Assembly (NCBI GenBank): GCA_040954595.2 | Contig: CM082598.2 | Span: forward strand, 992,001 to 1,056,000 | DNA: 64,000 nucleotides | From: Balanoglossus misakiensis | Taxonomy: Eukaryota; Animalia; Hemichordata | Direction: 5' to 3' | Shown here: piece after piece, positions 1,691-61,482 of the stretch | Layout: each line of letters begins with the position of its first letter | How positions within the stretch are numbered: the first letter of the stretch is position 1 | Translations under genes and position numbers: made by a program | Notes under the pieces: model-generated | Databases searched by the model: none | What the model was told of the DNA's origin: nothing | What the model saw: the letters and a program-made list of their open reading frames with translations, nothing else

Positions 1691-1817
1691 ATAGGTCATA
1701 GGTCATAGGTCAAGACTAAGACTAAGACTAAGACTAAGACTAAGACTAAGACTCAGACTCAGACTCAGACTCAGACTCAGACTCAGACTCAGACTCAGAC
1801 TCAGACTCAGACTCAGA
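1690..1817. repeat. Short hexamer runs (GGTCATA)n, (AGACTA)n, (AGACTC)n
   Basis: Read directly from the sequence; these form the transition into the long AAGTCT array. Confidence 0.9.
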
Positions 1818-2800: not shown

Positions 2801-3235
2801 CTTCTACTTCTACTTCTACTTCTACTTCTACTTCTACTTCTACTTCTACTTCTACTTCTACTTCTACTTCTACTTCTACTTCTACTTCTACTTCTACTTC
2901 TACTTCTACTTCTACTTCTACTTCTACTTCTACTTCTACTTCTACTTCTACTTCTACTTCTACTTCTACTTCTACTTCTACTTCTACTTCTACTTCTACT
3001 TCTACTTCTACTTCTACTTCTACTTCTACTTCTACTTCTACTTCTACTTCTACTTCTACTTCTACTTCTACTTCTACTTCTACTTCTACTTCTACTTCTA
3101 CTTCTACTTCTACTTCTACTTCTACTTCTACTTCTACTTCTACTTCTACTTCTACTTCTACTTCTACTTCTACTTCTACTTCTACTTCTACTTCTACTTC
3201 TACTTCTACTTCTACTTCTACTTCTACTTCTACTT
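2801..3235. repeat. Perfect (CTTCTA)n hexamer array
   Basis: Uninterrupted cttcta repeats. Confidence 0.98.
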
Positions 3236-3630
3236 ATACTTATACTTATACTTATACTTAATACTTAATACTTATACTTAATACTTAATACTTAATACTT
3301 AATACTTAATACTTAATACTTAATACTTAATACTTAATACTTAATACTTAATACTTAATACTTAATACTTAATACTTAATACTTAATACTTAATACTTAA
3401 TACTTAATACTTAATACTTAATACTTAATACTTAATACTTAATACTTAATACTTAATACTTAATACTTAATACTTAATACTTAATACTTAATACTTAATA
3501 CTTAATACTTAATACTTAATACTTAATACTTAATACTTAATACTTAATACTTAATACTTAATACTTAATACTTAATACTTAATACTTAATACTTAATACT
3601 TTATACTTAATACTTAATACTTAATACTTA
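3236..3630. repeat. (ATACTT)n changing to a (ATACTTA)n heptamer array
   Basis: A few atactt units followed by a long atactta array. Confidence 0.97.
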
Positions 3631-3770
3631 GAAAATATAGCGCGCCGCGTTGCGGCGCAATATTACCACACCAAAAAAATAACGCGCTCCGGCGTCGCGG
3701 CGCTACGCGCCGCACATAATACATACCACAGTACAGCGTCCCGTCGCGCGTAAAAAATTGCGCGATTCAT
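3628..3770 (-). mobile_element. Helitron-like 3' terminus (GC hairpin plus CTRR) in a CpG-rich unique island
   Basis: The minus strand reads GCGCCGC-AAC-GCGGCGC (7-bp stem, 3642-3658), a 10-nt spacer, then CTAA (3631-3628). This is the usual Helitron 3'-end layout. No RepHel ORF or 5' end was identified. Confidence 0.45.
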
Positions 3771-3771
3771 C

Positions 3772-4335
3772 ACAGCAGGCACGGGGGACGTCGCGGGGAT
3801 GGGAAATTTAGATTGATGACAGCAGGCACGGGGGACGTCGCGGGGATGGGAAATTTAGATTGATGACAGCAGGCGCGGGGGACGTCGCGGGGATGGAAAA
3901 TTTACATTGATGACAGCAGGCACGGGGGGCGTCGCGGGGATGGGACATTTAGATTGATGACAGCAGGCACGGGGGGCGTCGCGGGGATGGGACATTTAGA
4001 TTGATGACAGCAGGCACAGGGGACGTCGCGGGGATGGAAAATTTACATTGATGACAGCAGGCACGGGGGCGTCGCGGGGATGGGAAATTTAGATTGATGA
4101 CACCAGGCACGGGGGACGTCGCGGGGATGGGAAATTTAGATTGATGACAGCAGGCACGGGGGACGTCGCGGGGATGGGAAATTTAGATTGATGACAGCAG
4201 GCGGGGGGGGCGTCGCGGGGATGGGAAATTTAGATTGATAACAGCAGGCGGCGGGGGCGTCGCGGGGATGGGAAATTTAGATTCATGACAGCAGGCACGG
4301 GGGGCGTCTCGAGGATGGGGAAATTTAGATTGATG
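3772..4335. repeat. 47-bp GC-rich minisatellite, ~12 copies
   Basis: Unit acagcaggcacgggggacgtcgcggggatgggaaatttagattgatg, starting at 3772, 3819 and so on; it degenerates after ~4335. Confidence 0.95.
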
Positions 4336-4754
4336 GGGGGCGTCGTGGGGAAATATAGATTGATGATAGAGGGGCGCGGGGAAATTTAGATTGATGATAG
4401 AGGGGTGCAGCGCAGGGAAATTAAGATTGATGATAGAGGGGTATGATATAGTGTAGTGAACTTAGATTGATGATAGCAGGGTAAGTTACGTGTATATAGT
4501 GCAGTGAACTTAGTTTAATAATAGGCATTGGTAGGGATAACTTAGATTACAGTGTCAGATGCTCATAACTGTCATCTGCTCATAAATAAAGGCTTTCTAT
4601 TAAAAGTTCACTTTTATCAATTGCCAATAAGCCATACACTTAACTCAACTTAGACTAAGTTACCCCCCAATTAAACTCAACAAAGCTACCCACTACATAC
4701 ACCTAAGTTGCCCCTATAATTAATCTAAGTTCCCCCCACTACATACATCTACGT

Positions 4755-5650
4755 CTTAGTCTTGACCTAAGTCAAAAAAAAGTCTAAGTCTTATAACCCC
4801 AAGTCTTATGACTCTAAGTCTATAAACAGTTTAAGTCTAAAAACAGTCTAAGTCTTATGACCCAAAGTCTAAGTGTTAGGACCCTGTCTTATGAGTCTAA
4901 AAAAAGTTTAAGTATAATGACCCTAGGTCTCAATAAAATCTAAGTCTTATGAGTCTAAGTCTATAAACAGTTTAAGTCTAAAAACAGTCTAAGTCTTATG
5001 ACCCCAAGTCTTATGAGTCTAAGTCTAAAAACAGTTTAAGTCTAAAAACAGTCTAAGTCTTATGACCCAAAGTCTAAGTGTTAGGACCCTGTCTTATGAG
5101 TCTAAAAAAAGTTTAAGTCTAATAACCCTAGGTCTCAATAAAATCTAAGTCTTATGAGTCTAAGTCTATAAACAGTTTAAGTATAAAAACAGTCTAAGTC
5201 TCAAAAAATCTAAGTCTTATGACCCCAAGTCTTATGAGTCTAAGTGTTAGGACCCTGTCTTATGAGTCTAAAAAAGTCTAAGTCTAAAGACCCTAGGTCT
5301 CAATAAAATCTAAGTCTTGAGTCTAAGTCTATAAACAGTTTAAGTCTAAGTCTTATGACCCCAAGTCTTATGAGTCTAAGTCTAAAAACAGTTTAAGTCT
5401 AAAAACAGTCTAAGTCTAAAAACACTCTAAGTGTTAGGACCCTGTCTTATGAGTCTAAAAAAGTCTAAGTCTAAAGACCCTAGGTCTCAATAAAACCTAA
5501 GTCTTGTGACCCTATGTCTAAAAAAGTCTAAGTGTTAGGACCCTGTCTTATGAGTCTAAAAAAAAGTTTAAGTCTAAAAAAGTCTAAGTCTAATGACCCT
5601 AGGTCTCAATAAAATCTAAGTCTTATGACCCCAAGTCTTATGAGTCTAAG
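4755..5650. repeat. Degenerate AAGTCT satellite (right arm, inverted relative to 200-1690)
   Basis: For example, agtctaagtgttaggaccct (4866) is the exact reverse complement of agggtcctaacacttagact (366). Confidence 0.9.
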
Positions 5651-8600
5651 TTCCCCCCACTACATACATCTAAGTTACCCCCTATCATAAATCTAAGTTG
5701 CCCCTATAATCTAAGTTCCCCCCACTACATACATCTAAGTTACCCCCCTATAATTAATCTAAGTTCCCCCCACTACATACATCTAAGTTACCCCCCTATC
5801 ATAAATCTAAGTTGCCCCTATAATCTAAGTTCCCCCACTACATACATCTAAGTTTCCCCTAACTTACCCCCTTATCATAAATCTAAGTTGCCCCTATAAT
5901 CTAAGTTCCCCCTACTACGTACACCTAAGTTCCCCCCACTACATACATCTAAGTTACCCCTAAGTTACCCCCCTATCATAAATCTAAGATGCCCCTATAA
6001 TCTAAGTTCCCCCCCCTATCATAAATCTAAGTTGCCCCTATAATCTAAGTTCCCCCCATTACATACATCTAAGTTACCCCTATCATAAATCTAAGTTCCC
6101 CCCACTACGTACATCTAAGTTACCCCCACTACATACATCTAAGTTACCCCTAAGTTACCCCCCTATCATAAATCTAAGTTGCCCCTATAATCTAAGTTCC
6201 CCCCACTACATACATCTAAGTTACCCCCCTATCATAAATCTAAGTTGCCCCTATAATTAATCTAAGTCCCCCCCACTACGTACACCTAAGTTCCCCCCAC
6301 TACATACATCTAAGTTACCCTCCTATCATAAATCTAAGTTGCCCCTATAATCTAAGTTCCCCCCACTACGTACACCTAAGTTCCCCCACTACATACATCT
6401 AAGTTACCCCCTTATCATAAATCTAAATTGCCCCTATAATCTAAGTTCCCCCCACTACGTACACCTAAGTTCCCCCACTACATACATCTAAGTTACCCCC
6501 TTATCATAAATCTAAGTTGCCCCTATAATCTAAGTTCCCCCCACTACATACATCTAAGTTACCCCCCTATCATAAATCTAAGTTGCCCCTACAATCTAAG
6601 TTCCCCCCACTACATACATCTAAGTTACCCCCCTATAATTAATCTAAGTTCCCCCCACTACATACATCTAAGTTACCCCCCTATCATAAATCTAAGTTGC
6701 CCCTATAATCTAAGTTCCCCCACTACATACATCTAAGTTTCCCCTAACTTACCCCCTTATCATAAATCTAAGTTGCCCCTATAATCTAAGTTCCCCCTAC
6801 TACGTACACCTAAGTTCCCCCCACTACATACATCTAAGTTACCCCTAAGTTACCCCCCTATCATAAATCTAAGATGCCCCTATAATCTAAGTTCCCCCCC
6901 CTATCATAAATCTAAGTTGCCCCTATAATCTAAGTTCCCCCCATTACATACATCTAAGTTACCCCCTATCATAAATCTAAGTTCCCCCCACTACGTACAT
7001 CTAAGTTACCCCCACTACATACATCTAAGTTACCCCTAAGTTACCCCCCTATCATAAATCTAAGTTGCCCCTATAATCTAAGTTCCCCCCACTACATACA
7101 TCTAAGTTACCCCCCTATCATAAATCTAAGTTGCCCCTATAATTAATCTAAGTCCCCCCCACTACGTACACCTAAGTTCCCCCCACTACATACATCTAAG
7201 TTACCCTCCTATCATAAATCTAAGTTGCCCCTATAATCTAAGTTCCCCCCACTACGTACACCTAAGTTCCCCCACTACATACATCTAAGTTACCCCCTTA
7301 TCATAAATCTAAATTGCCCCTATAATCTAAGTTCCCCCCACTACGTACACCTAAGTTCCCCCACTACATACATCTAAGTTACCCCCTTATCATAAATCTA
7401 AGTTGCCCCTATAATCTAAGTTCCCCCCACTACATACATCTAAGTTACCCCCCTATCATAAATCTAAGTTGCCCCTACAATCTAAGTTCCCCCCACTACA
7501 TACATCTAAGTTACCCCCCTATCATAAATCTAAGTTGCCCCCACTACGTACACCTAAGCTCCCCCCACTACGTACATCTAAGTTACCCCCCTATCATAAA
7601 TCTAACTTGCCCCTATAATCTAAGTTCCCCCCACTACATACATCTAAGTTACCCCCCTATCATAAATCTAACTTGCCCCTATAATCTAAGTTCCCCCCCA
7701 CTACGTACACCTCAGTTACCCCCCTATAATTAATCCAAGTTCCCCCCACTACACACACCTAAGCTACTCCCCCTTGAATAAACTCAACTTAGACTAAGCT
7801 ACCCCCCCCCATAATTAATCTAAGTTACCCCCCTATCATAAATCTAACTTGCCCCTATAATCTAAGTTACCCCCCCTATAATTAATCTATGTTCCCCCCA
7901 CTACATACATCTAAGTTACCCCCTATCATAAATCTAAGTTGCCCCTATAATCTAAGTTCCCCCCACTACATACATCTAAGTTACCCCCCTATAATTAATC
8001 TAAGTTCCCCCCACTACATACATCTAAGTTACCCCCCTATCATAAATCTAAGTTGCCCCTATAATCTAAGTTCCCCCACTACATACATCTAAGTTTCCCC
8101 TAACTTACCCCCTTATCATAAATCTAAGTTGCCCCTATAATCTAAGTTCCCCCTACTACGTACACCTAAGTTCCCCCCACTACATACATCTAAGTTACCC
8201 CTAAGTTACCCCCCTATCATAAATCTAAGATGCCCCTATAATCTAAGTTCCCCCCCTATCATAAATCTAAGTTGCCCCTATAATCTAAGTTCCCCCCATT
8301 ACATACATCTAAGTTACCCCCTATCATAAATCTAAGTTCCCCCCACTACGTACATCTAAGTTACCCCCCTATCATAAATCTAAGTTGCCCCTATAATCTA
8401 AGTTCCCCCCACTACATACATCTAAGTTACCCCTAAGTTACCCCCCTATCATAAATCTAAGTTGCCCCTATAATCTAAGTTCCCCCCACTACATACATCT
8501 AAGTTACCCCCTATCATAAATCTAAGTTGCCCCTATAATTAATCTAAGTCCCCCCCACTACGTACACCTAAGTTCCCCCCACTACATACATCTAAGTTAC

Positions 8601-10020
8601 CCCCTTATCATAAATCTAAATTGCCCCTATAATCTAAGTTCCCCCCACTACGTACACCTAAGTTCCCCCACTACATACATCTAAGTTACCCCCTTATCAT
8701 AAATCTAAGTTGCCCCTATAATCTAAGTTCCCCCCACTACATACATCTAAGTTACCCCCCTATCATAAATCTAAGTTGCCCCTACAATCTAAGTTCCCCC
8801 CACTACATACATCTAAGTTACCCCCCTATCATAAATCTAAGTTGCCCCCACTACGTACACCTAAGCTCCCCCCACTACGTACATCTAAGTTACCCCCCTA
8901 TCATAAATCTAACTTGCCCCTATAATCTAAGTTACCCCCCTATCATTAATCTACTTTCCTCCCACTACATACACCTAAGTTACCCCCCTATCATCAATCT
9001 AACTTGCCCCTATAATCTAAGTTACCCCCCCTATAATTAATCTATGTTCCCCCCACTACATACACCTAAGCTATGATTAACCTAAGTTACCCCCTATCAT
9101 TAATATAACTTCCCCCCACTACATACACCTAAGTTACCCCCCTATCATTAATCTACTTTACTCCCACTACATACACCTAAGTTACCCCCCTATCATCAAT
9201 CTAACTTGCCCCTATAATCTACGTTCCCCCCACTACATACACCTAAGTTACCCCCTATCAGTAATCTAACTTACCCCTATAATCTTAACTTCCCCCCACT
9301 ACATACACCTAAGCTATGATTAATCTAAGTTGCCCCTAAGCAAAGCTCCCCCCTATGATTAATCTAAGTTACCCCACTACACACACCTAAGCTGCTCCCC
9401 CCTGAATAAACTCAACTTAGACTAAGCTACCCCCCCAATAATTAATCTAAGTTCCCCCCACTACATACACCTAAGTTATGATTCATCTAACTTGCCCCTA
9501 TAATCTAAGTTACCCCCACTACACACACCTAAGCTGCTCCCCCCTGAATAAACTCAACTTAGACTAAGCTACCCCCCCAATAATTAATCTAAGTTCCCCC
9601 CACTACATACACCTAAGTTATGATTAATCTAACTTGCCCCTATAATCTAAGTTACCCCCACTACATACACCTAAGCTAAGCTACCCCCACCTCAGCTTGT
9701 CCTCCCCCCCTGAATAAACTCAACTTAGACCAAGCTACCCCCCCAATAATTAATCTAAGTTCCCCCCACTACATACACCTAAGTTATGATTAATCTAACT
9801 TGCCCCTATAATCTAAGTTACCCCCACTACATACACCTAAGCTAAGCTACCCCCACCTCAGCTTGTCCCCCCCCCCTGAATAAACTCAACTTAGACCAAG
9901 CTACCACCCCCCCTTGATTAAACTCAACTTAGTCTAAGCTACCACCCCCCCCCTGACTAAACTCAACTTAGACTAAGCTACCCCCCCCTGATTAAACTCG
10001 ACTGTCCTAAGCTACACCCC
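5645..10020. repeat. C-rich composite satellite of ~18-26-bp CTAAG-initiated subunits with a higher-order repeat
   Basis: Subunits are ctaagttccccccactacatacat, ctaagttacccccctatcataaat and ctaagttgcccctataat. Diagnostic variants recur at 5851/6736/8092 and 5986/6871/8227. Confidence 0.95.
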
Positions 10021-11510
10021 CCTGAATAAACTCAACTTAGACTAAGCTACCCCCCAACTACACACACCTCAGCTGCTCCCCCCCTGAATAAACTCAACTT
10101 AGACTAAGCTACCCCCCAACTACACACACCTCAGCTACACCCCCCTGAATAAACTCAACTTAGACTAAGCTACCCCCCAACTACACACACCTCAGCTGCT
10201 CCCCCCCTGAATAAACTCAACTTAGACTAAGCTACCCCCCAACTACACACACCTCAGCTGCTCCCCCCTGAATAAACTCAACTTAGACTAAGCTACCCCC
10301 CAACTACACACACCTCAGCTGCTCCCCCCTGAATAAACTCAACTTAGACTAAGCTACCCCCCAACTACACACACCTCAGCTGCTCCCCCCTGAATAAACT
10401 CAACTTAGACTAAGCTACCCCCCAACTACACACACCTCAGCTGCTCCCCCCTGAATAAACTCAACTTAGACTAAGCTACCCCCCCTGAAATAACTCAACT
10501 TAGACTAAGCTACCCCCCAACTACACACACCTCAGCTGCTCCCCCCTGAATAAACTCAACTTAGACTAAGCTACCCCCCAACTACACACACCTCAGCTGC
10601 TCCCCCCCTGAATAAACTCAACTTAGACTAAGCTACCCCCCAACTACACACACCTCAGCTGCTCCCCCCCTGAATAAACTCAACTTAGACTAAGCTACCC
10701 CCCAACTACACACACCTCAGCTACACCCCCCTGAATAAACTCAACTTAGACTAAGCTACCCCCCAACTACACACACCTCAGCTGCTCCCCCCCTGAATAA
10801 ACTCAACTTAGACTAAGCTACCCCCCAACTACACACACCTCAGCTGCTCCCCCCCTGAATAAACTCAACTTAGACTAAGCTACCCCCCAACTACACACAC
10901 CTCAGCTGCTCCCCCCTGAATAAACTCAACTTAGACTAAGCTACCCCCAACTACACACACCTCAGCTGCTCCCCCCCTGAATAAACTCAACTTAGACTAA
11001 GCTACCCCCCAACTACACACACCTCAGCTACACCCCCCTGAATAAACTCAACTTAGACTAAGCTACCCCCCAACTACACACACCTCAGCTACACCCCCCT
11101 GAATAAACTCAACTTAGACTAAGCTACCCCCCAACTACACACACCTCAGCTACACCCCCCTGAATAAACTCAACTTAGACTAAGCTACCCCCCAACTACA
11201 CACACCTCAGCTGCTCCCCCCCTGAATAAACTCAACTTAGACTAAGCTACCCCCCAACTACACACACCTCAGCTGCTCCCCCCTGAATAAACTCAACTTA
11301 GACTAAGCTACCCCCCAACTACACACACCTCAGCTGCTCCCCCCTGAATAAACTCAACTTAGACTAAGCTACCCCCCAACTACACACACCTCAGCTACAC
11401 CCCCCTGAATAAACTCAACTTAGACTAAGCTACCCCCCCTGAAATAACTCAACTTAGACTAAGCTACCCCCCAACTACACACACCTCAGCTTGTTCCCCC
11501 TGAATAAACT
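10021..11510. repeat. 61-62-bp tandem minisatellite, ~24 copies
   Basis: Unit cctgaataaactcaacttagactaagctaccccccaactacacacacctcagctgctcccc. Confidence 0.96.
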
Positions 11511-14764: not shown

Positions 14765-16990
14765 ACCCCAGATACAGAAATCGGGCTGCATAATTTGTAT
14801 CATTGTAGCTGATAGAACGATCGCGAAGATCAAACCACAGCAGCGTTTAAAATTAAGCCGTTATGGGTCTTTCTAATTCCCGTTGTCGATTACAAATACA
14901 AAGAACGGGAGGCCCGGGAAACATACCTCTTTGTTCATTTCAAAATTGCCGCCTTTTACTAGATTTTCCAACATGCACCCCAGATACAGAAATCGGGCTG
15001 CATAATTTGTGTCATTGTAGCTGATAGAACGATCGCGAAGATCAAACCAGAGCAGCGTTTAAAATTAAGCCGTTATGGGTCTTTCTAATTCCCGTTGTCG
15101 ATTACAAATACAAAGAACGGGAGGCCCGGGAAACATACCTCTTTGTTCATTTCAAAATTGCCGCCTTTTACTAGATTTTCCAACATGCACCCCAGATACA
15201 GAAATCGGGCTGCATAATTTGTGTCATTGTAGCTGATAGAACGATCGCGAAGATCAAACCAGAGCAGCGTTTAAAATTAAGCCGTTATGGGTCTTTCTAA
15301 TTCCCGTTGTCGATTACAAATACAAAGAACGGGAGGCCCGGGAAACATACCTCTTTGTTCATTTCAAAATTGCCGCCTTTTACTAGATTTTCCAACATGC
15401 ACCCCAGATACAGAAATCGGGCTGCATAATTTGTGTCATTGAAGCTGATAGAACGATCGCGAAGATCAAACCAGAGCAGCGTTTAAAATTAAGCCGTTAT
15501 GGGTCTTTCTAATTCCCGTTGTCGATTACAAATACAAAGAACGGGAGGCCCGGGAAACATACGTCTTTGTTCATTTCAAAATTGCCGCCTTTTACTAGAT
15601 TTTCCAACATGCACCCCAGATACAGAAATCGGGCTGCATAATTTGTGTCATTGAAGCTGATAGAACGATCGCGAAGATCAAACCAGAGCAGCGTTTAAAA
15701 TTAAGCCGTTATGGGTCTTTCTAATTCCCGTTGTCGATTACAAATACAAAGAACGGGAGGCCCGGGAAACATACGTCTTTGTTCATTTCAAAATTGCCGC
15801 CTTTTACTAGATTTTCCAACATGCACCCCAGATACAGAAATCGGGCTGCATAATTTGTGTCATTGAAGCTGATAGAACGATCGCGAAGATCAAACCAGAG
15901 CAGCGTTTAAAATTAAGCCGTTATGGGTCTTTCTAATTCCCGTTGTCGATTACAAATACAAAGAACGGGAGGCCCGGGAAACATACCTCTTTGTTCATTT
16001 CAAAATTGCCGCCTTTTACTAGATTTTCCAACATGCACCCCAGATACAGAAATCGGGCTGCATAATTTGTGTCATTGTAGCTGATAGAACGATCGCGAAG
16101 TTCAAACCAGAGCAGCGTTTAAAATTAAGCCGTTATGGGTCTTTCTAATTCCCGTTGTCGATTACAAATACAAAGAACGGGAGGCCCGGGAAACATACCT
16201 CTTTGTTCATTTCAAAATTGCCGCCTTTTACTAGATTTTCCAACATGCACCCCAGATACAGAAATCGGGCTGCATAATTTGTGTCATTGTAGCTGATAGA
16301 ACGATCGCGAAGATCAAACCAGAGCAGCGTTTAAAATTAAGCCGTTATGGGTCTTTCTAATTCCCGTTGTCGATTACAAATACAAAGAACGGGAGGCCCG
16401 GGAAACATACCTCTTTGTTCATTTCAAAATTGCCGCCTTTTACTAGATTTTCCAACATGCACCCCAGATACAGAAATCGGGCTGCATAATTTGTGTCATT
16501 GTAGCTGATAGAACGATCGCGAAGATCAAACCAGAGCAGCGTTTAAAATTAAGCCGTTATGGGTCTTTCTAATTCCCGTTGTCGATTACAAATAAAAAGA
16601 ACGGGTGGCCCGGGAAACATACCTCTTTGTTCATTTCAAAATTGCCGCCTTTTACTAAATCTCCCAACATGCACTGCACCCTACATTAGAGCGCCCGCAC
16701 ACGGCAATTTGTCAAAATCGGTTTCGCGGAACAGCACCCCCAGATATAGAATCGAGCTGATGCCAACCTTTGCATAATTTGTGTCATTGTAGCTGATAGA
16801 ACGATCGCAGCGTTTAAGCGGTTATGGCTCTTTCTAATTCCCGTTGTCGGATAAAAAGAAAAAGAAAGAGAAACATACCTGTTCGATCATTTCAAAATGG
16901 CCGCCTTGTACTAAATTTCCCAACATGCACCACACCCTACGGTATGGCCGCCACCAACGGCAAGTTGTCAAAATCGTTCTATTCGGAGCT
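14765..16990. repeat. 212-bp tandem array (9 near-identical copies) followed by longer diverged monomer sequence
   Basis: Unit starts (accccagatacagaaatcggg) at 14765, 14977, 15189, 15401, 15613, 15825, 16037, 16249 and 16461. A diverged copy lies at ~16736-16990. Confidence 0.97.
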
Positions 16991-21269: not shown

Positions 21270-24200
21270 CTACATCATTGATTCCTGATCCTTGGCATTT
21301 GTATCATTGAGCTTGTCACCGGAATTGGTTAAACTTCTTCCCGGGTAGAGTTTCTGCATTTCCTCTGGTTCTCCGACTTCATTCATCATGGCTTCTCGGG
21401 ATTTCTGAGCTTCTTCCTCGGCCTCCAAATGATCCATGTGTTTCAGTTCCACAGTGGATAAATGCGCCACGATACCGGCTCCATAGGAATCACCTAACAC
21501 ATTGACTGAGGTACGGAAACGATCGCTGTGAACAAGAGAACATAAATGCCAGTTAGGAGAATGTCTGTAGTTACAAACAAACAACTTTATTGCTCAACAA
21601 CACACTCAGGGAGTGCAGTAAGGCAAAATTCACAGTTGCAAACTTCAACAGGCATAGGACGAAGCTACTGCTGGGGATGGATATATAGTGCTACAATTCA
21701 CAAAAGGAAGTTTATCTTTATGAGTAAAGATCGATATACATGAACTTTTCTCTTTCATGTACATAGGAACTGGACATTACAGAGACTGGGACAATTGCTT
21801 GGTTTGTAGAAGCGTCCACTTTATAGACATTAAATCTTAATTAACATGATGTTTTATGTGAAGGGATTAAAGGTTTCCTATTGGCTTTGACTTTGCTCCA
21901 AAAATTTACCACAAAATGATATTTAATAAAAATAAGTGAAGGAACGTGTATGATAATAAAAGCCAGGGCTCTAGGTGACTCTGCCTTGATTGTCCAAAAT
22001 GTGCCGTCCCAAAAAGAAAGGGGTCTTATGGTCATAAGAATCGCGCTCCCATAAGACCCCTTTCTGCTTGGGATGGCCCAAATGTAACACACAGTACCCT
22101 CGTCTATACATGACCGTATTCTGAACAAAAAACCAAAATACACAAATGAGCTTTGACACTTACAGAAGCCAATCCACAGTCCACAAAAGAGTGACATCAC
22201 CAGTAGGCAGTCCAGCTGCAGTCAAAACTAGCAACATTGTTACCAATCCAGCACTGGGTATACTGGCTGCTCCAATACTTGCCAAAGTAGCTGTCAGACT
22301 GCGGACAAAATGTAACAATGTAACAAACTGTTAATGTATTGCTCAAATTCAAACATTTCTTCCTTTATATTCTCAGAGTGGAACTTTAGACTCTCACAGC
22401 CCCTCTCGCCGTCCATGCAGGCTTATGGTCTGATTGCAGGTGTGAACACCATATGGGGCTTCTCCTAATTGCTAAACAGTTCAGGGCGCGTCAGTGAAGA
22501 GACTCAATGTAGCGAACCATGGGCTGTGAGAGAGTCTAAGTGGAAGAAGAAGCCCCTGACATAATCATGACACTAAACATTGAAATAAAAATAACCAGCG
22601 CAGGTTACAAACAATCTAGTCTTCAGACTTATATTTACCTAACAGTGATAATAGCTCCAGGACTGAGAACTATCCCATTCATCTGTGCAATAAAGATAGC
22701 AGCTACAGCTTCATAGAGAGCAGTTCCATCCATGTTGACTGTGGCACCAATGGGAAGAACAAATCGAGTGACTCTCTTATCCACTTTGTTGTTCTCCTCC
22801 AGGCATCGGAAAGTCACCGGCAAAGTCCCGGCACTGATTTCAAAGACAACAGATGTGTATAGATAAGCAAAAGGATGAAATTTCCTATTTCAAACATGAG
22901 AAGTAGATTTCTTCAAAGAATACCCACAGAGTTCTTCCTTCTGAGATTTGCAGGTATTTTTGAGCTTTAGTTTATTTAGCTATCGAATTCTATGTTATCC
23001 CTATGGTAACAGTTTTCCCAGAATTATGACTCTGTCAAACAATCTTTGATTAATACTTTCCTTGATTTTACACAATGTGAAAGCAAGGCTACACTCATTG
23101 GCATTCCAGACAGACAGACAAACAAACAAATAAACAAACAAAACAAAACTGTTCCCACTCACCTTGATGCAGTACCAAGAGCTGTGATCCAGGCTTGCAG
23201 AACACCAAAGAAATATGTGTACGGATTTTTCCGGGTGATGACAAAGTATACACCCGGAAGTACCATGAATCCGTGGATGATGAGCCCAACAACAACAGTC
23301 AACATGTACATTCCCAGTTGAGCCAAAACTGATGCGATATCACCCATGGCTAACAACTTGGCCGCAATCAAGCACATGATACCAACAGGTGAATACCTGA
23401 AATAACAGTTAACAACAGGCAATAGTATACATATATTGACTAGCAATGATGGGCAATAGCGTATGTTTGTTTCCCCAGGGATGGTGAGTCGCCCCAAAAG
23501 AGTCTGTTTCCCATTGGTCTTCAGACTGTTTTGGATCGATTCATTGGTCCGACAAATAATATTGACTTTGTCTACTTCAACCATACTGACAAATAAAAGA
23601 TGAAGTAAATATACTATGCTCTGGGTAGCTTCTTTTACACTGAAACATTATTTGTGAATTGTCCAAATGATTAAAGGTTAAACTGTCTTTTGCATTCGTA
23701 TGATGACCGACTACCTGATGAAAAAAATTCAGATTTTAAATGTTAGTTTGATAATCAAGAGGAAAGATTATCTGAAAAGGTAAGCACACTGTTATAAACA
23801 CAAATAAATAAATGTACTTACCACATGACAATAAGTACCATTTGCATAATAATATCATTGAGGATTGTGAAGAATTTATTCATCACTTCAGCATCCTTTC
23901 CCATCTTGGCCATCAAAATACCAAAAGCTATACAAAATATAATCAAACCTGCAAGATAGATGGTGAAAAGTTCAAATCTGTTTCAACCTGTTTCAGCTAT
24001 AACAGAGCTTCCGTTTATACAAAATCCATGTGTATCATGCATTTCTACCCATAATTACGCAAAGATAATGATGGACGAGATCAATAGAATCTCACACTTA
24101 CAAGGACCTGGGCACATATTTCTCACACGAGTTGGGGATTTTTGTTCCACACGAGCCGAAGAGTGTGAGACAAAATATCCCTGTCGACCCTGACAAGAGA

Positions 24201-27180
24201 TATGATCCCAGGTCCTTGGTGAGTGTTATTCAATCAGTGTTATTCATATTTCTCTCACGCAACCACAAGTCACCAAATTAATATTAGAAATCTTTAATAA
24301 TTGACTCTGGAACGGTAGTCTCACATGTTGTTTCTGTCCGTGTCATACACATCGCGCCATTGGATATCATCTAGCCCACGTTAATCAAAGAACGATTTGT
24401 CATCCAATAAGCGCTCACATCATAATACAGCTTTTGATTCAGTGAGAGTGTGGGATCGATTTGTTCTCACGCTCTGATCCCACACTCTCAGCATGCCAGG
24501 AGTGTGACAAAATGATTATAGCGGGGTTGACTTACCAAGAACATTCATGCCATCCACCCAGATGATTTTACGTGCCGGTTTGTATCCAACGACATAGGTT
24601 ATTTGTTCTTGTATATATGTGACGTTCGTTCCATTGATGGTTGGAATATAATACAATCCTTCTCTCTCTGTGTCCGTCATGTTAGCAACAGTCGTGTCAT
24701 TAATGGTGATGTTCATATCCTTGGTGGCGTGGATTGGTGCGTCCTCATAGTCAGTCCTCACCTGTTGAATCACAAAACAGTCAAAGCTGTGTTAGTTGCC
24801 ACCTCTATATACAGCCACTTTGTACATTAATTGACCTGTTTATAAAGGCCAGTTTAGGAAAGTCTCTTGACTGGCCACTATAGACGGTTTGCCGTTCGAC
24901 TGACGGACTATAGAAGAATGAATTCTATGAAAACAAATGCCGTTATGTTTTCAAACTGTGATGGCTTGCATCAAGTAGCAGCATCACATGTACCAGACAT
25001 GAAAAGTTAATCTGATAAAAACAAAAGACTTCATTTCTTCATACAGTGAGGGCAAACTGCAGTAAACACATTTACCATGAAAAACACTGAAACTGCAGAA
25101 AACAATTTGGTATTAGACTGATTTCATAAAGTAATCTTTCCTAAACTGGCCTTCAAAGACAGGTGGTTTCAATGGACAGGTCAATTAATGTACAAGAGAC
25201 TTGTGGCCACTAACACAGTTGAAAGTATTTCTACAAACTTTGTTGTAACTATTTTCAGTGCTGCAGACAATTTCTGAGACATGAGCATGAGTAAATGGAC
25301 CCTTGTTGATCAGAACGTTCATGGAAAAACAAATATTAACACTCACCTGTTTGAAGCAAGCTTGTACTAAATTTTCTGGGAACAGGTTTCTGTAAAAGAA
25401 AGATTCATTAAAGTTATATTCCCTGGCTGGCAACACTGCTACAATAATTATCCGAGTCTTGCGAGATTTCACAATGAACGGAAAATCATCTATCAAAAGG
25501 ATCATGTGCTCCAAGTGATTCAAAATTCCAGGACTTTCCGAGAGTTTTCCCGGTGATTTTCCGGGAATTTTTGAGGTCAAAAATACCGGAAAATCACCGG
25601 AAAAACCTGTTGTGTATTTACCTGACCAAATCCAAGAAAGCGTCCAATGTATCCACTTTAGTCTCAGCTCCTTCTTCCACATCCAGTTGTTCCTTCTTCT
25701 CCTGGTCTCCCGGATGAATGGAAACCACCAGAATGATTCCCAGGATAGCAGCAAACAAGGTTGTACAGAAGTAATAAACTAAGGCACGCGTTCCCATTTT
25801 ACCGCTGGATTTAGCATCAAGCTGAGATAGACCTAAAAATCAATCAATCAAAAACATTTATATGGCGCCAATATCCAGAGAACTGTTCAGTGGCGCCCGT
25901 CACATGTCACTTTATGGAAAGGGATGTTGCCTAAATATTCTCAGGTGGTACTAGAATCCCTTTTGAGTGGCCACAAGTCTATTTTCATGATATATTATTG
26001 ACAGGTTGTTTTATACAGCACAACCAATACAAGAGTGTTCAAAACCAACTTAAGGAATGCCATGAAACTATTGCTTGCATGTTGACTAGCATGCAGTCCA
26101 GTTCTTGTCAGTGTGCTGCCACAACTTTCAAGGGGGCTATGACAAAAAGTGTTTCACATGGGCATCAATTGTGGGTTTTGATCACACATTAGAAGTGGCC
26201 ATGTACACTTGAAAGTGGATTGTGGAAGCAAAGTTGGACGATTAGCGCTTTCATCCCCATTTCTTTTTTTGGAGTTCCAACTTCACCCATACAGAACAAT
26301 GGATTTGGACCAAACCATGGCGGCGAAAAAGGTAAATAATACCTGTGATGAGACTGGAAATAATGAGAGGCAGGATCAACATCTTCAGCATCCTCATCAA
26401 CAGATCTCCCGGGAAACCAATGAGTAAGATGGCAGTATCCGATGGGTTGGCGGGACGCAGAGCAAGTCCGAAGATGATACCAAGACATACTCCAATAACA
26501 GTCAGCACTAAGAGGAGATCTTTCTTCACCCAGTCAAGTACCTGTAAATAATGAGAAAGAATGTACATCAGGTTAAGACCACATGGTTTCATTCTCACAC
26601 CAGGAATGAATGACAAGACTGTAGATTCTGCATGCGATCTGTGCCATACAGAATTTTCTTTCCTGAGTAATATGATGTATAAGTGGTGTGGTGTATTCTG
26701 CAGCAATGCATTCATAACCGTACTGGCCTTGTGATTGGCGTTCTGACTGCAATGATTTATAAGGAACAATCTGACACAGCCATTGTTTTTCGAATCTGGA
26801 TGGGAAACCCTAGCGGGGAGAGAAACATGCTTGAAGTGATCACTCCATCCTTCAAATCTGTTCCTCACAATATTATCCTTTCCACTTTGGACTTAACGAC
26901 GTTCTTAAGATAAGGCTGCATGATTACATGTGAAATGATCACCATCCTTCATGTCTGTAGGATATATCCCAGACACTGGTATTTCTCTGTGATTGTGCAT
27001 ATTTCTGTCTCTACTGGAAGCCAGCGATTGAAAGATTATTTGATGGTCATATCCCGCAATCAACAGCTTTAATAAATTCTTTTGGAAGTTTGAGGAATTT
27101 TATTTATCCCAATTTACCTTGACATGCCAAGGATCCTTACTCTGTACATTGTAACTCTCTCTTCCCGATTCGACATCCAT
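21270..27180 (-). CDS. SLC1A2: Excitatory amino acid transporter, SLC1A2/EAAT2 (GLT-1)-like Na+/glutamate symporter; 10 coding exons, 562 aa
   Basis: Exons (all introns GT-AG and phase-compatible): 27180-27118, 26541-26343, 25832-25622, 25389-25347, 24761-24536, 23948-23822, 23396-23163, 22833-22639, 22298-22164, 21525-21270, total 1689 nt. Motifs: [132 protein letters not shown]. An in-frame TAA lies upstream of the ATG within the same exon (acceptor at 27219). Confidence 0.95.
22387..22538. mobile_element. 152-bp TAG...CTA inverted-repeat element in an SLC1A2 intron
   Basis: Termini tagactctcacagccc and gggctgtgagagagtcta. The flanks partly match (agtggaa on both sides), suggesting a decayed target duplication. 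Confidence 0.6.
24086..24515. mobile_element. Intronic repeat relic containing two palindromes (24086-24231 and 24443-24490)
   Basis: caaggacctggg...cccaggtccttg and tgagagtgtgggatc...gatcccacactctca. Confidence 0.5.
26242..26335. mobile_element. ~90-bp mini-element, TTAA-ended family (copy 3), abutting a splice donor
   Basis: Core aacaatggatttggaccaaaccatggcggcgaaaaaggtaa; it ends within a few bp of the donor at 26342. Confidence 0.65.
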
Positions 27181-46410: not shown

Positions 46411-49400
46411 ATCTTTGTGAAATGATAATACCCAAATAAAATACATCAAAACTAACCTGCAGTGCTTTGGTCGCTTGACTGTTATACCAGATCTTCTCTC
46501 AAGTCTGATTCATCAATTCCTGCAAACCAATGGAATATAATACTCATTAAAATCTTTATCAAAAATATGTCATGGTCATAAACTGCATAGTTTCAATCTG
46601 TATGGATGACAGATCCCTCTATCAGAGTGATGTCCTGTGTGCCCTCAACAAAGTCTCTCACAAAACCAACTTCAGGATAAATAGTCCTATAAACATCTCA
46701 GCAACTTCACAAAGCTGGGTTTGGGATGGTATATGGTATGTGGTCGTGGGATGGTCTTTAATTAGACAGAATGTAATTGACAGATGTCAGATGTTTTTGA
46801 TAGACAGTTAGCTGATCACTTGTTCTCGTAAATGGTGCATCTTTTTAAATAAACGGTGCATTATGAGCCTCAGTATAAGTACATACGCACGCAAACTGGT
46901 GGAGTACTTCACCCCTAAACAGTAACAATCAAATCTTTGTTCTGGAATTTGATCGACAGTGCGTTCGACATGGTGTAGTGGACTAAAGCACACTGAGAGG
47001 GTTATTTTGATAAACACTGCTTCATAGAATACAACCCTGATCTCTGACATTTTTCTTTCATTGAACCAGACACTTATTCTTTCATCCAAGAATACATGTT
47101 GTGTTAGTGGTTGTGGTGTTTCTTTATCTGTAGTACTAGTACTGAAATACCTCTGCAAATAACAGTTAGAATAAAACTTTTTGGTTGATTTATGTGATCA
47201 TTAAAAATCCTGCCGTCCTGGCCTGCTCAAGAATGAGTTTGCTAGCTTTTTCTTTATGAGAATCACTTTGCAGAATAATTAAAAGTTATTAAGTATTGTG
47301 TAAAGTTTCACTCAGTATATAACTCAAGTCATGCATATCTAAAGTTTTGACTTTTCATTTCATTTGTTGAGATGGGTTTGAATTGAGTAAATGATGGCAT
47401 TTTATAACATGTTAATCATCCTACCATCAAAATATTTATCACATATAAATGGTTCCTAACCATTAACTAGTATTGAGTAATTATTTGCTCACATTATACT
47501 GAACAAACAAGCTTTTTCAATGATATTCATAAATGTACAATGTAAATATTGTGAAATGACAGCTGGGGCTAGCCACAAGCCTTTACTGCTTGTGATACAA
47601 AAATACCCTGGATCTGAAATGTGTTGCTAAGCAAATACATGATGATAAAGTCACCATATTGACAAGTGTAGTCACAATTCCCAGAACGACTGGTTTGCTA
47701 CAAAAGGCGTCAATTTTGAGTGACTCGACCAGCAAAGCTTAGCACACTCGGCAGAATTTTTCTTCTGAAAAGCATATTGATTGCCCAGCCCATATAACAA
47801 ATCAATATGTCAATTTCCTACAACCGTGTTTCATAGTTCTATCTACGTCTCGTCAGATTTCTTGTTCCCGTGACAAAGAACCAGCCAAGCCAAACATTTC
47901 TTGAGTAAAAGTCAATTCAGGAGTCACTGTATTGATTTTCCCGGTACAATTAAATCTCTATAAATAAAACGATGTGAAGTGATTTCAGTTGAAACACACC
48001 AGTCATTTTACTTGAAATGGTATGAATTGAAGCTAAAGGAAAGACTGTGTTTTGTTAAGCCAGTACCCCGGTAAAATTTAACCAGGGTTCTCCCATCAAT
48101 TTTCTGGAGGTTTCCGTAAGTATGCATATCAATGAAATCAAATTAGGAGACAAATAATAAAACTGATTTCTTTCTATCAAAACGCCATACTGCAAATTAC
48201 AGTTAAACAGTATTTCAAATTTTACAAGTTATTGATTTCATTTGCAGTTTTCTACTTTATTTAACTTAAACTATATGTTTATAAAAACACCAGGTGATTT
48301 TTTTATGCCAGAAAGATAGATTACCTTTGCAGCCCAAGATTGTGGTTTGCATATTATTAAACTAGAAGATCTACAACTAAAGTCGGCATATTCTAAAATT
48401 CCATCAATAATTCAAAGCGTTTTTTACTTGCTGTGAATTCTTTAGTGTTCAGATACATTCCCATTGAAAATGGAAGTGCTGAATGAAACTTTTTAAGATT
48501 GATTCGATTTTCTCTGCGAGGCAGCAGACAGCTAATAATAGAATATTTGGATTCCTTCGGCAAATATTGTGTGGAGGTCAGTGTATCCTCTGCGACAAGA
48601 CTTCAAGCAAAGAGGCCTTAAGACATAATTCCAAGCTGCGGCGTTCTATTAAATATGTCGTGAGAATCATACTTTGCTTTCAAAGGGTTGATCATAAAGA
48701 ACGAAAATCCTTGGATTTAGAAAATTGCATACTGAAGCCTTTTACTAATCTTGCCTGTGCAATAAATTTTAGCAAAATACACAAGAGTCCAACATTTTTC
48801 AGAGATAACGAAACAGTTAGTAAAATACAAGAATGCGAAAATTAATCCTCGCGTAACAGTTGCCTCTTTTGATCTCGTGAAAATTTCCCGTCGCGAAATT
48901 AACCCGTTTTACAGTATGTTACTATTAAACCAAATGCCGAAACCATTTATCGCGACAGAACGCCTCTTTTGAAAGGCTGGGAAACACAGAACTGACTTTG
49001 CATGGCTTAATACATTTCAGGGGCAGATAATTTGCATTAAGATGTCGCTGTGTTTGTCATATGACTTATTCAGAGCGTGTTAAATGGGAACCACAATCAG
49101 CTGATTGGATGTGACTATACTTTATTGATGGATATTTTGGTGTTGTTAAAACAGCGATTCTATGACACCATAGAAATGTATCTGACTCCCCAGGGTATGG
49201 CCCTTGGCACTTTTAATTACAAGCAAATTCCAGGTATTTCAGCAATAGCACAGACTTATATCCCTCAGTGGGAATCCCGCCACTTTCCAAGGAATCCAAG
49301 CCTGCTGACTGATCGGAAAGTCAAAACGGAAAAATGTAGTAGCATGACATAAATGCAATTATTCCCACTAAAAATTTTAACGTCACGGATTCCTTTCCTT

Positions 49401-58688: not shown

Positions 58689-61482
58689 TCAGTCTAACAG
58701 TGGAGATGCTTCTGATGTGACAATATCGCTGTCTTCACTCAGAATGTTACCAGGGTTGGAAATCTCGATTACATCTGTAAAAAAACAGTGATTTGAACGT
58801 TGGAAATTAAAATTGTTAATTTGTAGACTGACTGTAGCCGTTATGTATTTAGCATTATTTCCCCTGTTTACAAAATAAATAATAATAATAATAATTTATT
58901 TGCCAAAAAATGAATTATGGGAACTAGGGATGGAAGGGTTAAGCATCAACTGCATGGGAATTGCACAAAAATACACACACCTGAGATTTTGACAGCCCCA
59001 GTCGTGTTTGTCGTTACCATACCAACAAGCGCATTGTCTTGTCCAGCTGGAAAGGTTCTCATTGGAACTGGTGCGAATGTACCATCAGATTGGCCTTGAT
59101 AAATATACACCTGTGAATGAGAAATATCCAGGTTTTTTCTTATTAGGAACTTTATATAGCCGATAGGGTTGTTTCTATCTAAGTATATTTCTTCGCCTGG
59201 GCCACCCACTGAAATATGGGATTGGCTATATTTCGATTTTCTATTATTAAATTCGCATAGATGACCTGATCTGGCATAATCAACATTGATTCATATCTGG
59301 AATTTCTGAAGTGATTTTAACCTTTTAAAATAATTTTATTTTTTATTCATTCATTCATCCATCCATCCATCCATTCATCCATCCATCCATCCATCCATCC
59401 ATCCATTAACAAATTCATTCATGCATTCATTACAAGAACAATTCTGTATATACCTGTGAAGGTTTACAACAGGCCAAAGCTCCCTTACAAAAATCTGTGC
59501 AGCACCTCTTGGTGTCAGAAGCCTGCAAGTATAAATATACATACATTATATATTATATACTTTTATGACTGACCACTTGACTGTTTCATTATTTGGCCAA
59601 AAATTGACCGAAATCGACTGATTCTTTGCAAAGGAATTTTAACCAATCTTCTGAAAAAATCTTTATGCTGAAATCACTTTCAAATACTTCTGAAATAGCC
59701 AACTTCACTTCTTCATTTTATGGTGGAAGGACATAATGTCAAATTTTTTTTTTGCTTGGACTATGTGTTGTGTCTCGTGTGTTGTTAGTTGCCTGAACAA
59801 TATGCCTGAAATTATGAAAAATTCTTTTTCGTTTTGACGATGGCAATCTTATCATGGATAGGTATGACTGACCACAGCAAAGTTCAACAACCTCAAACAC
59901 ACAAGAGAAAAGAAATTTTGAAGACAACCACATGTGATTGACATTCACATTTACCTTGAGATTACATCCCTTGTTACCACGGTAACATGAATATCTGAGC
60001 AACAGAACGCCATTTGTAAAAGCGATGATAGCTTCACATATTCCCATCATCAAGATGAAGGTATCGATACTCTGTCGTGTTGGCTGCAATGTAAAAGATG
60101 TGAATTAGTGGATCATTTGGACACTGACTGAAAGTGTTGGATATTGGGTGATTAATCCAGACAGATACATTTACCCATTATATGCATTAATTTTGCCTGT
60201 TGCGTGGACATTCTCATGTGACTCAGGAAAAAAAAAAACCATGGCCCGTTGTGTTAAAGTTAAATGGCACAAAAGTTAACATTTTTTTGTTGAACTCTGC
60301 TATTTAAGTTTCATACAAAGCTTGACTTGTGTTTCTTGGCTAGCACACTGTTGCCATGGTAATTAACAACGGTAAATAACGCATGTAACATACCAAAGTT
60401 TGCCGGAATTGCCTTTGACAAAGAGAGTTATAATCACGGAAGTCTTCATGACACGTCTCTTTACCATAAGCCCATGCGTAAGAATTGTCCTCATTGCCCA
60501 AAGCCACGGCCATAACAATAACCAAGGCTGTCACGCAGAACGTTGCCGACAGGAATGAAAAAACTGTAGCTGCCACAACCTGTCAATATGGAACAAGACA
60601 AATCTGAGTACACTATACTTGTTCTTCGATTGAAATGAGCAAACATGGTTGACAAGGCATCAATGAATGTGTAGGTCACTAAAAAATAAATTAGTCCATA
60701 GATAAGAACTTTTATGATCTTGTCTGTCGTCTGTTATTAAATAAAATGCCAACATAAAATAAATAGCCAATCTGAAAGAGACGTCATACACAAACCATGA
60801 AATGTAATCTTAGTATGCTTACAATATCACTGCTCCTTTTTCTGGCTGATGCCATACCAATCAAACCAGTTGTCACTACCTTTGAAGAGAAAGAGAAATT
60901 GTCCTAATCACCATCCTGTTGTTTTGTTAAGCTTTTTATGTTTGTTAGTTTATTTATTTTCTTTAGAATAAATACATATATACGTATGTAAGTATATACA
61001 TAAAGTAAGGGTAGCTGGAGAAACAATCTCTACAATGTTGTTTCGTGAGTCACTGGACTCACTCATCAGGAGACTAAATGAGTTTACTTTAGTATCGAGC
61101 TCTTTGTATCAGTCCAGTCGAACCACATACTTCGTATAAGTATATACATATTGTAAGTATTGTGGTGTTTTCGAAACCCCTCAAATATGTTAATATAATG
61201 AAATTTGTTGTTCAATACTGAAAAAGAAGACTTTCAGGTACTATCAAAAATAATAGTTTATAATCAAATTTTACTTGCCAAAAATCCAGCATAGTATGGG
61301 ATACCAATATGAGCAAAGTGGCACTGCATTTCGATCGCAACTATCCCCATCAATATGATGATAGTGCCGATCAGAACTTGGATAAAACCAAACATCTTCA
61401 ATGTGGATGGTCTAACTGCTGGTCTGGTTATCTGCAGCTTTATGGATTCTGCACCCCACTCTTCAGTGAAGGGTTTTTCCAT
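58689..61482 (-). CDS. MS4A/CD20-like four-transmembrane protein; 7 coding exons, 286 aa
   Basis: Exons 61482-61279, 60879-60823, 60579-60394, 60083-59955, 59522-59454, 59110-58981, 58774-58689 total 861 nt in one open frame. There are four hydrophobic segments, including FGFIQVLIGTIIILMGIV and GIPYYAGFLVVTTGLIGM (MS4A-like TM1 G.xQ and TM2 G.PxWxG patterns), a Cys pair in loop 2 and a Cys-rich juxtamembrane tail. A probable 5'UTR exon lies at ~62215-62340 and AATAAA at 58612-58607. Confidence 0.8.
59345..59430. repeat. (CATT)/(CATC)n microsatellite in an intron
   Basis: Read directly from the sequence. Confidence 0.9.
61003..61136 (-). mobile_element. 134-bp retroposed insert (Penelope-like or retrozyme-type fragment) with a 14-bp TSD
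   Basis: taagtatatacata is duplicated at 60989-61002 and 61137-61150, and the insert carries a hammerhead motif. Confidence 0.65.
61025..61075 (-). ncRNA. Type I hammerhead ribozyme
   Basis: The minus strand reads AGUCUC-CUGAUGA-GUGAGUC(CAGU)GACUCAC-GAA-ACAA(CA)UUGU-A-GAGAUU. It has the complete core (CUGAUGA, GAAA), a 7-bp stem II, a short stem III, a GUA cleavage triplet and stem I AGUCUC/GAGAUU. Confidence 0.88.

What the first reader, a model, noticed from the sequence alone, without database searches (positions are those of the whole stretch)
61025..61075. Intact hammerhead ribozyme in sense orientation inside an intron of the MS4A-like gene
Seen in the sequence: every catalytic-core nucleotide is present on the minus strand (CUGAUGA, G-C at the base of a 7-bp stem II with a CAGU loop, GAAA, short stem III, GUA triplet, 6-bp stem I). 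The predicted cut is between 61031 and 61030. A distal 8-bp helix (61084-61091 with 61001-61008) could extend stem I past an internal loop. Established knowledge: type I hammerheads with a short stem III are typical of Penelope-like elements and retrozymes and often cleave best as dimers. Inference: because it is on the transcribed strand of the host intron (60880-61278), it could cut the pre-mRNA co-transcriptionally.
Basis: partly seen in the sequence, partly recalled or inferred. Interest (0 to 1): 0.85.

Follow-up and report, generated by a model that had tools for sequence, protein, structure and literature searches.

The report
Decayed Penelope-type hammerhead in an intron
This is a real self-cutting-RNA (hammerhead) motif, but it is one of many copies of a repeat that likely comes from the end of a Penelope-type jumping gene; this lone copy has lost the self-complementary segment its relatives are predicted to need for cutting, and its host intron is spliced out in an assembled transcript, so it is likely an ordinary leftover.

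Summary
The motif is real and the coordinates are right: a complete type I hammerhead core lies at 61075-61025 (minus), sense to a 287-aa CD20/MS4A-like gene, in a 399-nt GC-AG intron. Rfam misses it, and also misses the motif in 16 related loci. It is a repeat: summed contig depth over the core is 300-700 times that of the flanks. About 90% of family depth has a perfect 10-nt palindromic stem III. This copy has a CpG-type change at its centre (predicted dimer helix -3.0 versus -12.1 kcal/mol), lacks 12 nt beside stem I, and has no partner in the window. In metagenome contigs, 11 of 26 loci with the same core sit 68-134 nt behind a Penelope-like endonuclease ORF end. A contig matching the window haplotype joins the flanking exons, so the intron is spliced. 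A second haplotype differs inside the ribozyme. The proposed distal helix forms only in folds where stem I is open. Verdict: a likely inert Penelope pseudo-LTR remnant. This scan has noted the same kind of thing in at least 8 other genomes. Cleavage itself was not testable.

The parts
61025..61075 (-). Type I hammerhead motif: stem I 61075-61070/61030-61025; core 61069-61063 and 61044-61041; 7-bp stem II 61062-61056/61051-61045; 3-bp stem III 61041-61039/61034-61032; GUA triplet 61033-61031; predicted cut 61031/61030
   Evidence: covariation in relatives
61032..61041 (-). Stem III / dimerisation segment; near-palindrome broken at 61036 (family majority has CpG at the centre, this copy CpA)
   Evidence: table 3: 13199 of 14759 (X1) and 30062 of 33285 (X2) depth units carry the other letter; duplex energies
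61024..61025 (-). Place where other family copies carry about 12 more nucleotides directly 3' of stem I; absent in the window and in the second haplotype
   Evidence: tables 4 and 7 (33 and 24 contigs with loose ends at 61025); tables 7, 8
60983..61138 (-). Approximate extent of the repeat insertion (about 150 nt) that carries the hammerhead
   Evidence: raised depth and loose ends at 61138 and at 60983-60994
60989..61009 (.). 3' copy of a 21-nt direct repeat (90% identical, TA-rich); at least partly shared with other family copies, so partly element tail
   Evidence: (D12), table 8
61137..61157 (.). 5' copy of the 21-nt direct repeat; target duplication in a TA-rich site or terminal redundancy, not resolved
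61060..61085 (-). Predicted competing hairpin: 61083-61074 pairs with 61069-61061 and sequesters the catalytic core once 10 nt of flank are present
61001..61091 (-).
60880..61278 (-). Host intron, 399 nt, GC donor and AG acceptor; predicted cut lies 248 nt from the donor and 151 nt from the acceptor
   Evidence: (joint skipping 399 nt in X3)
58689..61482 (-). CD20/MS4A-like gene, 7 coding exons (61482-61279, 60879-60823, 60579-60394, 60083-59955, 59522-59454, 59110-58981, 58774-58689), 286 aa plus stop, open frame
   Evidence: 41-45% identity over 275-284 aa to two Ptychodera flava proteins, named; those relatives hit Pfam PF04103 at E 8e-11 to 0.008; first three coding junctions seen in X3

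Best explanation
This is a genuine hammerhead motif inside a roughly 150-nt repeat insertion that is likely the truncated 3' end (pseudo-LTR) of a Penelope-like retroelement, and this lone copy is predicted to cut rarely or not at all, so it likely has no role for the host gene. Shown: the motif, its high multiplicity, the family's palindromic stem III, this copy's departure from it, the lack of a second copy in the window, and the spliced host mRNA. Inferred mechanism of the family: two copies in one partial-tandem element transcript pair through the 10-nt palindrome to build a long stem III, and each cuts after GUA to trim the element RNA. Reverse transcription from the 3' end by the element's RT and GIY-YIG endonuclease often stops early and leaves short HHR-bearing ends in TA-rich sites. 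One landed, sense by chance, in this intron. It then decayed: a CpG-type change in the palindrome, a 12-nt loss and further haplotype differences. As a monomer it has only a 3-bp stem III and competing local folds, and splicing of the short intron most likely finishes before any cut.
For: Summed depth over 61032-61073 is 28.8k against 49-67 in flanks (X1) and 71.8k against 98-235 (X2); 215 and 191 contigs were laid. 89% and 90% of depth at 61036 carries the palindromic letter. The self-duplex of stem III is -3.0 kcal/mol here and -12.1 for the natural palindromic form in L012. The net dimer estimate with flanks is +8.8 to +12.7 kcal/mol here, against -8.1 to +4.1 for 9 of 10 relatives with a fully paired stem III duplex (L026 is the exception, +8.8 to +11.0). 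Four opposite-strand joints at the motif (table 5) fit the inverted truncated copies described for PLEs (PMC8557442 and PMC4209133). 11 of 26 metagenome loci with the same core have a PLE-type ORF end 68-134 nt upstream on the same strand; the ORF piece of L014 hits GIY-YIG weakly (E 0.0036) and is 56% identical to the end of the 537-aa L011 ORF. Stems I and III, not fixed by my search pattern, covary in 19 distinct sequences (8 pairs with two-sided changes). A 7-8 bp helix II, a palindromic helix III and no cleavage of a single minimal motif are published PLE features (PMC4209133). The X3 contig has 0 differences from the window over 347 exon letters and joins the exons on both sides of the intron.
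Against: No PLE ORF remnant lies in the window (tblastn of 5 ORF pieces, 0 hits) and no genome is held, so the link of this very family to a PLE ORF rests on related families from other animals (best 89% over 55 nt). The RT call for L011 rests on recalled motifs: Pfam and PDB gave nothing. [quoted passage not shown] Trimmed to 51 nt the motif populates the active monomer fold at P 0.10-0.14, better than most relatives, so slow in vitro cleavage is plausible. Its low monomer occupancy with flanks (1e-5 to 3e-4) overlaps that of intact relatives, so misfolding alone does not single it out. Contigs show that spliced mRNA exists, not what share of pre-mRNA is cut. All three runs are one sample and may be the window's source.
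Confidence: 0.8

Rival explanations
1. The insertion is a solo monomer of a non-autonomous non-LTR retrozyme (about 160-nt unit with 21-nt terminal redundancy), copied from a small circular RNA by a PLE enzyme. It is equally inert in this intron; only the origin differs.
For: The direct repeats are 148 nt apart, 160 with the missing 12 nt, within the 150-450 nt range of animal retrozymes (PMC7229834). The 3' repeat copy is partly shared with other copies. About 42-44% of retrozyme copies in two Xenopus genomes overlap introns, and monomers are common (bioRxiv 10.64898/2026.07.22.740005).
Against: No tandem unit in the window and no head-to-tail joint among the 409 contigs laid (table 5). Stem II is 7 bp, not the canonical 4 bp. 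Upstream flanks of family copies are heterogeneous (loose-end agreement 0.46-0.55).
Confidence: 0.13
2. The copy cuts the pre-mRNA co-transcriptionally often enough to tune expression or splicing of the MS4A-like gene, like the CPEB3 ribozyme or the conserved amniote intronic hammerheads. It would act as a monomer or by pairing in trans with other family transcripts.
For: Sense orientation, complete core, 6-7 bp stem I. The host intron has a GC donor, which may splice more slowly (established knowledge, recalled). The insertion is in the window and in a second haplotype, and no empty-site joint was listed. A heteroduplex with a palindromic copy is -6.3 kcal/mol. An intronic ribozyme affects Cpeb3 mRNA (PMC10919898 abstract).
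Against: It is a multi-copy repeat, so some copies will be sense-intronic by chance. The palindrome is broken and there is no partner in cis. The second haplotype has an A-C mismatch in stem I (61025), a U-G in stem II (61046) and probably one more change in 61026-61045, against 3 changes in 245 nt of flank. The acceptor is only 151 nt downstream. Hammerhead cuts within introns were reported not to block splicing (as cited in PMC2995048).
Confidence: 0.05
3. The match is a chance arrangement of letters in AT-rich intron DNA.
For: No Rfam hit; the loose pattern is not above chance.
Against: 0 of 500 shuffles gave an equally good motif; hundreds-fold depth; covariation in relatives; Rfam also misses 16 related loci.
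Confidence: 0.01

Closest known systems
Hammerheads in pseudo-LTRs of metazoan Penelope-like elements, the form with a small palindromic helix III (Cervera and De la Pena 2014, PMC4209133; results and discussion read)
   Same: Type I topology, long helix II (7 bp), G10.1-C11.1 pair, palindromic helix III in the family, many dispersed single copies, opposite-strand neighbours, predicted dimer dependence.
   Different: [quoted passage not shown]
Metazoan non-LTR retrozymes (Cervera and De la Pena 2020, PMC7229834, part 2 of 6 read; Li, Clavereau and Pollet 2026, 10.64898/2026.07.22.740005, part 1 of 5 and passages)
   Same: Type I hammerhead in a short AT-rich non-coding unit of about 150-160 nt; solo monomers and intronic copies are common.
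   Different: No tandem array seen, no circular RNA evidence, non-canonical helix II length.
Conserved intronic hammerheads of amniotes (RECK, CTCL, DTNB; passages of PMC6155905) and the CPEB3 intronic HDV-like ribozyme (PMC10919898 abstract)
   Same: Self-cleaving motif sense to a host intron.
   Different: Those are conserved across species. This one is a member of a high-copy repeat, varies between haplotypes and shows no recognisable loop 1-loop 2 geometry.

Membership tests
Type I hammerhead ribozyme | Core CUGANGA, GAAA and NUH triplet in order, joined by three helices | tested here: met
   0 of 500 shuffles as good
Type I hammerhead ribozyme | Covariation of helices I and III among relatives | tested here: met
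   8 pairs with two-sided changes, 86% of cells paired, 0 of 500 shuffles as high; helix II base was fixed by the search pattern; 21 of 27 sequences aligned
Type I hammerhead ribozyme | Match to an Rfam hammerhead model | tested here: not met
   control: 0 hammerhead hits in 16 related loci, so the library misses this subtype
Type I hammerhead ribozyme | Mg2+-dependent self-cleavage | not testable with these tools
   needs in vitro transcription
Canonical (fast) type I hammerhead | Helix II of about 4 bp with loop 1-loop 2 tertiary contact | tested here: not met
   helix II is 7 bp; the distal helix does not coexist with stem I in predictions; tertiary contacts themselves cannot be computed here
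Penelope-like element pLTR hammerhead | Long helix II (7-8 bp) with G10.1-C11.1 | tested here: met
Penelope-like element pLTR hammerhead | Palindromic helix III / loop 3 | tested here: inconclusive
   met for about 90% of family depth, broken at one position in this copy
Penelope-like element pLTR hammerhead | [quoted passage not shown] | tested here: not met
   sequence; the palindromic-helix-III form is described separately in the same paper
Penelope-like element pLTR hammerhead | Family lies behind an RT + GIY-YIG ORF | tested here: inconclusive
   11 of 26 related loci from other organisms have it (5 of the other 15 have under 150 nt upstream); none in the window; own genome not held
Penelope-like element pLTR hammerhead | Many dispersed single copies, some in inverted pairs | tested here: met
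   depth, loose ends and 4 opposite-strand joints; depth is only a rough proxy for copy number
Non-LTR retrozyme | Head-to-tail tandem units of 150-450 nt | tested here: not met
   no such joint (contigs may hide arrays)
Non-LTR retrozyme | Abundant small circular RNA | not testable with these tools
   only contigs, no raw RNA reads
Domesticated intronic ribozyme | Conserved at the orthologous intron across species | not testable with these tools
   no animal genomes to compare
Domesticated intronic ribozyme | More constrained than the flanking intron within the species | tested here: not met
   one other haplotype: 2 placed and 1 probable difference in 61025-61055, against 3 in 60780-61024; a single comparison

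The most novel reading that the evidence does not exclude
A weakened Penelope hammerhead in a short GC-AG intron acts as a slow fuse that competes with splicing. It is switched on in trans by pairing with transcripts of its hundreds of sister copies, and it differs in strength between haplotypes, so that retroelement activity and allele set the level of the MS4A-like mRNA.
Probability: 0.04. Interest if true: 0.6.

Novelty: new member of a known kind. Interest (0 to 1): 0.12.

Why it matters
As it stands it matters little. It adds one more animal, likely a hemichordate or close relative, to the list with many Penelope-type hammerheads, and it shows that a sense-strand intronic copy coexists with normal splicing. 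It would matter if the copy cut pre-mRNA in vivo, because that would catch a transposon ribozyme early in recruitment to gene control. The evidence points away from that.

Tried and rejected
Rfam: no hammerhead hit in the window or in 16 related loci; uninformative for this subtype. Whole genome: none held, so there is no direct copy count, orientation-bias test or search for an own PLE ORF. The look-up of sequencing runs: no RNA holder listed; X3 is listed as 'DNA?' and I read it as RNA-derived only from its exon joins. X3 has no cover over the unique part of the intron, which says nothing about cleavage. A second loose core at 47796-47856 failed the helix checks and is not among the 24 matches of the custom model (where the window copy matches by construction). 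Single exons of the host gene gave no Pfam hit; the CD20-like label comes from relatives. Pfam and PDB gave no RT hit for the L011 ORF. A hard-constrained dimer fold crashed and was replaced by an additive estimate, which dropped 12-13 of 26 loci for broken stems or triplet and 1-3 for lack of flank. 'Target-site duplication' as the sole reading of the 21-nt repeat was set aside because other copies share the 3' copy. The 212-nt tandem array at 14765-16674 was considered as a retrozyme array and rejected: no hammerhead there. A sequence look-up in earlier scan notes found nothing, nor did a look-up in this genome's notes. Paper searches for a hammerhead in MS4A genes (3 papers listed) or in hemichordates (10 of 128 listed) showed no title on this locus; I saw listings only. 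I read no supplements; the supplementary alignments of PMC4209133 may already hold this family.

Full report
Observation. A descriptor that demands the core and all three helices finds this one site in 64 kb; 500 dinucleotide shuffles of the window gave 11 loose hits in total and none as good. Rfam 15 reports no hammerhead at gathering threshold or at E up to 10. It also reports none in 16 loci that carry clear relatives, so the miss is a limit of the library.

Host gene. Seven coding exons on the minus strand give an open frame of 286 aa. It is 41-45% identical over 275-284 aa to two Ptychodera flava proteins and 40% over 177 aa to a third. These relatives hit Pfam CD20 (PF04103) at E 8e-11, 5e-6 and 0.008; only the first passes the curated cut-off. 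The MS4A-like label is therefore fair, and the organism is likely a hemichordate or close relative (inference). The motif lies in the intron 61278-60880, sense to the gene, with the predicted cut 248 nt from the GC donor and 151 nt from the acceptor. A 1005-nt contig of run X3 skips this intron and the next one, and its loose end reads into the following exon. It has 0 differences from the window over 347 exon letters, at places where contigs of X1 and X2 show other alleles. X3 is recorded as 'DNA?'; I take it as RNA-derived because the two listed joints have zero depth in X1 and X2. So the haplotype that carries this copy gives correctly spliced mRNA. Contigs cannot tell what share of pre-mRNA is cut, and the three runs are one sample that may be the window's source.

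It is a repeat. At 80% likeness, 215 (X1) and 191 (X2) contigs lie on 60780-61380. Summed depth is 28.8k over the core against 49-67 in flanks, and 71.8k against 98-235. That is a 300-700-fold excess; the tool warns that it is no true copy number. Depth stays raised from about 61138 to 60983-60994, an insertion of about 150 nt. It is bracketed by a 21-nt, TA-rich direct repeat. Other copies share much of the 3' repeat copy, so target duplication and terminal redundancy cannot be told apart. Four joints change strand at the motif and none runs head to tail.

This copy departs from its family. At 61036, 13199 of 14759 (X1) and 30062 of 33285 (X2) depth units carry the letter that makes 61041-61032 a perfect 10-nt palindrome with a central CpG; the window has CpA, the usual product of methyl-CpG decay (established knowledge). 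The self-duplex drops from -12.1 kcal/mol (natural palindromic form in L012) to -3.0; a mixed duplex is -6.3. Loose ends of 33 and 24 contigs show about 12 more nucleotides 3' of stem I that the window lacks. A second haplotype in X1 shares this loss, so it is the same insertion. It differs at 61025 (A-C mismatch in the outer stem I pair), at 61046 (U-G in stem II) and, by subtraction, probably once more in 61026-61045, against 3 differences in the 245 nt of flank. That is one comparison, but it shows no special constraint. I could not tell whether that haplotype keeps the palindrome. No empty-site joint was listed.

Folding. The 51-nt core alone populates the active monomer fold at P 0.10-0.14. 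With 10 nt or more of flank this falls to 1e-5 to 3e-4, and to 2e-6 in the whole intron, because 61083-61074 pairs with the core and GAAACAA pairs with 61026-61020. Against my reading: intact relatives have similarly low monomer occupancy, so misfolding is not special to this copy. The difference is the dimer. The additive estimate is +8.8 to +12.7 kcal/mol here, and -8.1 to +4.1 for 9 of 10 relatives with a fully paired stem III duplex (12-13 of 26 loci dropped as broken). These are secondary-structure predictions without tertiary contacts or proteins.

Origin. An exact core pattern found 26 metagenome loci, mostly AT-rich and animal-like; the closest is 89% identical over 55 nt. In an alignment of the window with 20 of them (6 left out as broken or cut off), stems I and III, which the pattern did not fix, show 8 pairs with two-sided changes and 86% paired cells, above all 500 shuffles and all slid controls. 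In 11 of 26 loci a PLE-type ORF end lies 68-134 nt upstream on the same strand. Two ORF pieces hit GIY-YIG (E 6e-5 and 0.004). The 537-aa ORF of L011 has RT-like motifs and a Cys-rich linker by recall only; Pfam and PDB gave no hit. The window holds no PLE ORF remnant and no second copy. Cervera and De la Pena 2014 (PMC4209133, parts 1-2 of 4 read) describe PLE hammerheads with 7-8 bp helix II and palindromic helix III, mostly single and dispersed; a single minimal motif showed no detectable cleavage and dimers only low activity. Craig et al. 2021 (PMC8557442, passages) describe 5' truncation, inverted copies and microsatellite targets. Li et al. 2026 (10.64898/2026.07.22.740005, part 1 and passages) find 42-44% of Xenopus retrozyme copies in introns, fewer than expected. 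PMC2995048 (passages) cites reports that an intronic hammerhead cut did not block splicing while a faster HDV ribozyme did; I did not read those two papers.

Verdict. The feature is real, of a known kind and likely inert: the decayed 3' end of a Penelope-like element (0.8), or a solo retrozyme monomer (0.13). A regulatory role in this intron gets 0.05. Earlier notes of this scan list 9 similar findings in at least 8 other genomes (8 shown, unchecked); I formed my reading before seeing them. Interest 0.12.

Noticed in passing
window 60880-61278 (-): The host intron uses a non-canonical GC donor, and the spliced join is seen in a contig.
   Followed up: yes
window 61078-61079 (-), family copies table 7: Many family copies read ...CAG directly 5' of 61078 with heterogeneous sequence further up. 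This could be the 3' splice site of a PLE intron ending at helix I, as described for Drosophila virilis Penelope, or just subfamily divergence.
   Followed up: no
window 14765-16674: Tandem array of 9 copies of a 212-nt unit, 99% identical; no hammerhead or Rfam family in it.
   Followed up: partly
window 202-11472: Eleven kb of simple and minisatellite arrays (6-, 7-, 16-, 47-, 61-nt units and others) with strong C-over-G skew; possibly subtelomeric.
   Followed up: no
window 23162-23647 and 26254-26892 (-): Exons of an SLC1/EAAT-type amino-acid transporter gene (Pfam PF00375).
   Followed up: partly
window 60823-60879 (-); protein P0002: The 57-nt, frame-preserving exon after the hammerhead intron has no counterpart in one of three Ptychodera relatives; a skipped exon or an annotation gap.
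   Followed up: no
run X3, record 18 (matches window 61041-61078): A 640-nt contig from another family copy runs uncut across the predicted cleavage site; that copy has an altered stem III.
   Followed up: no
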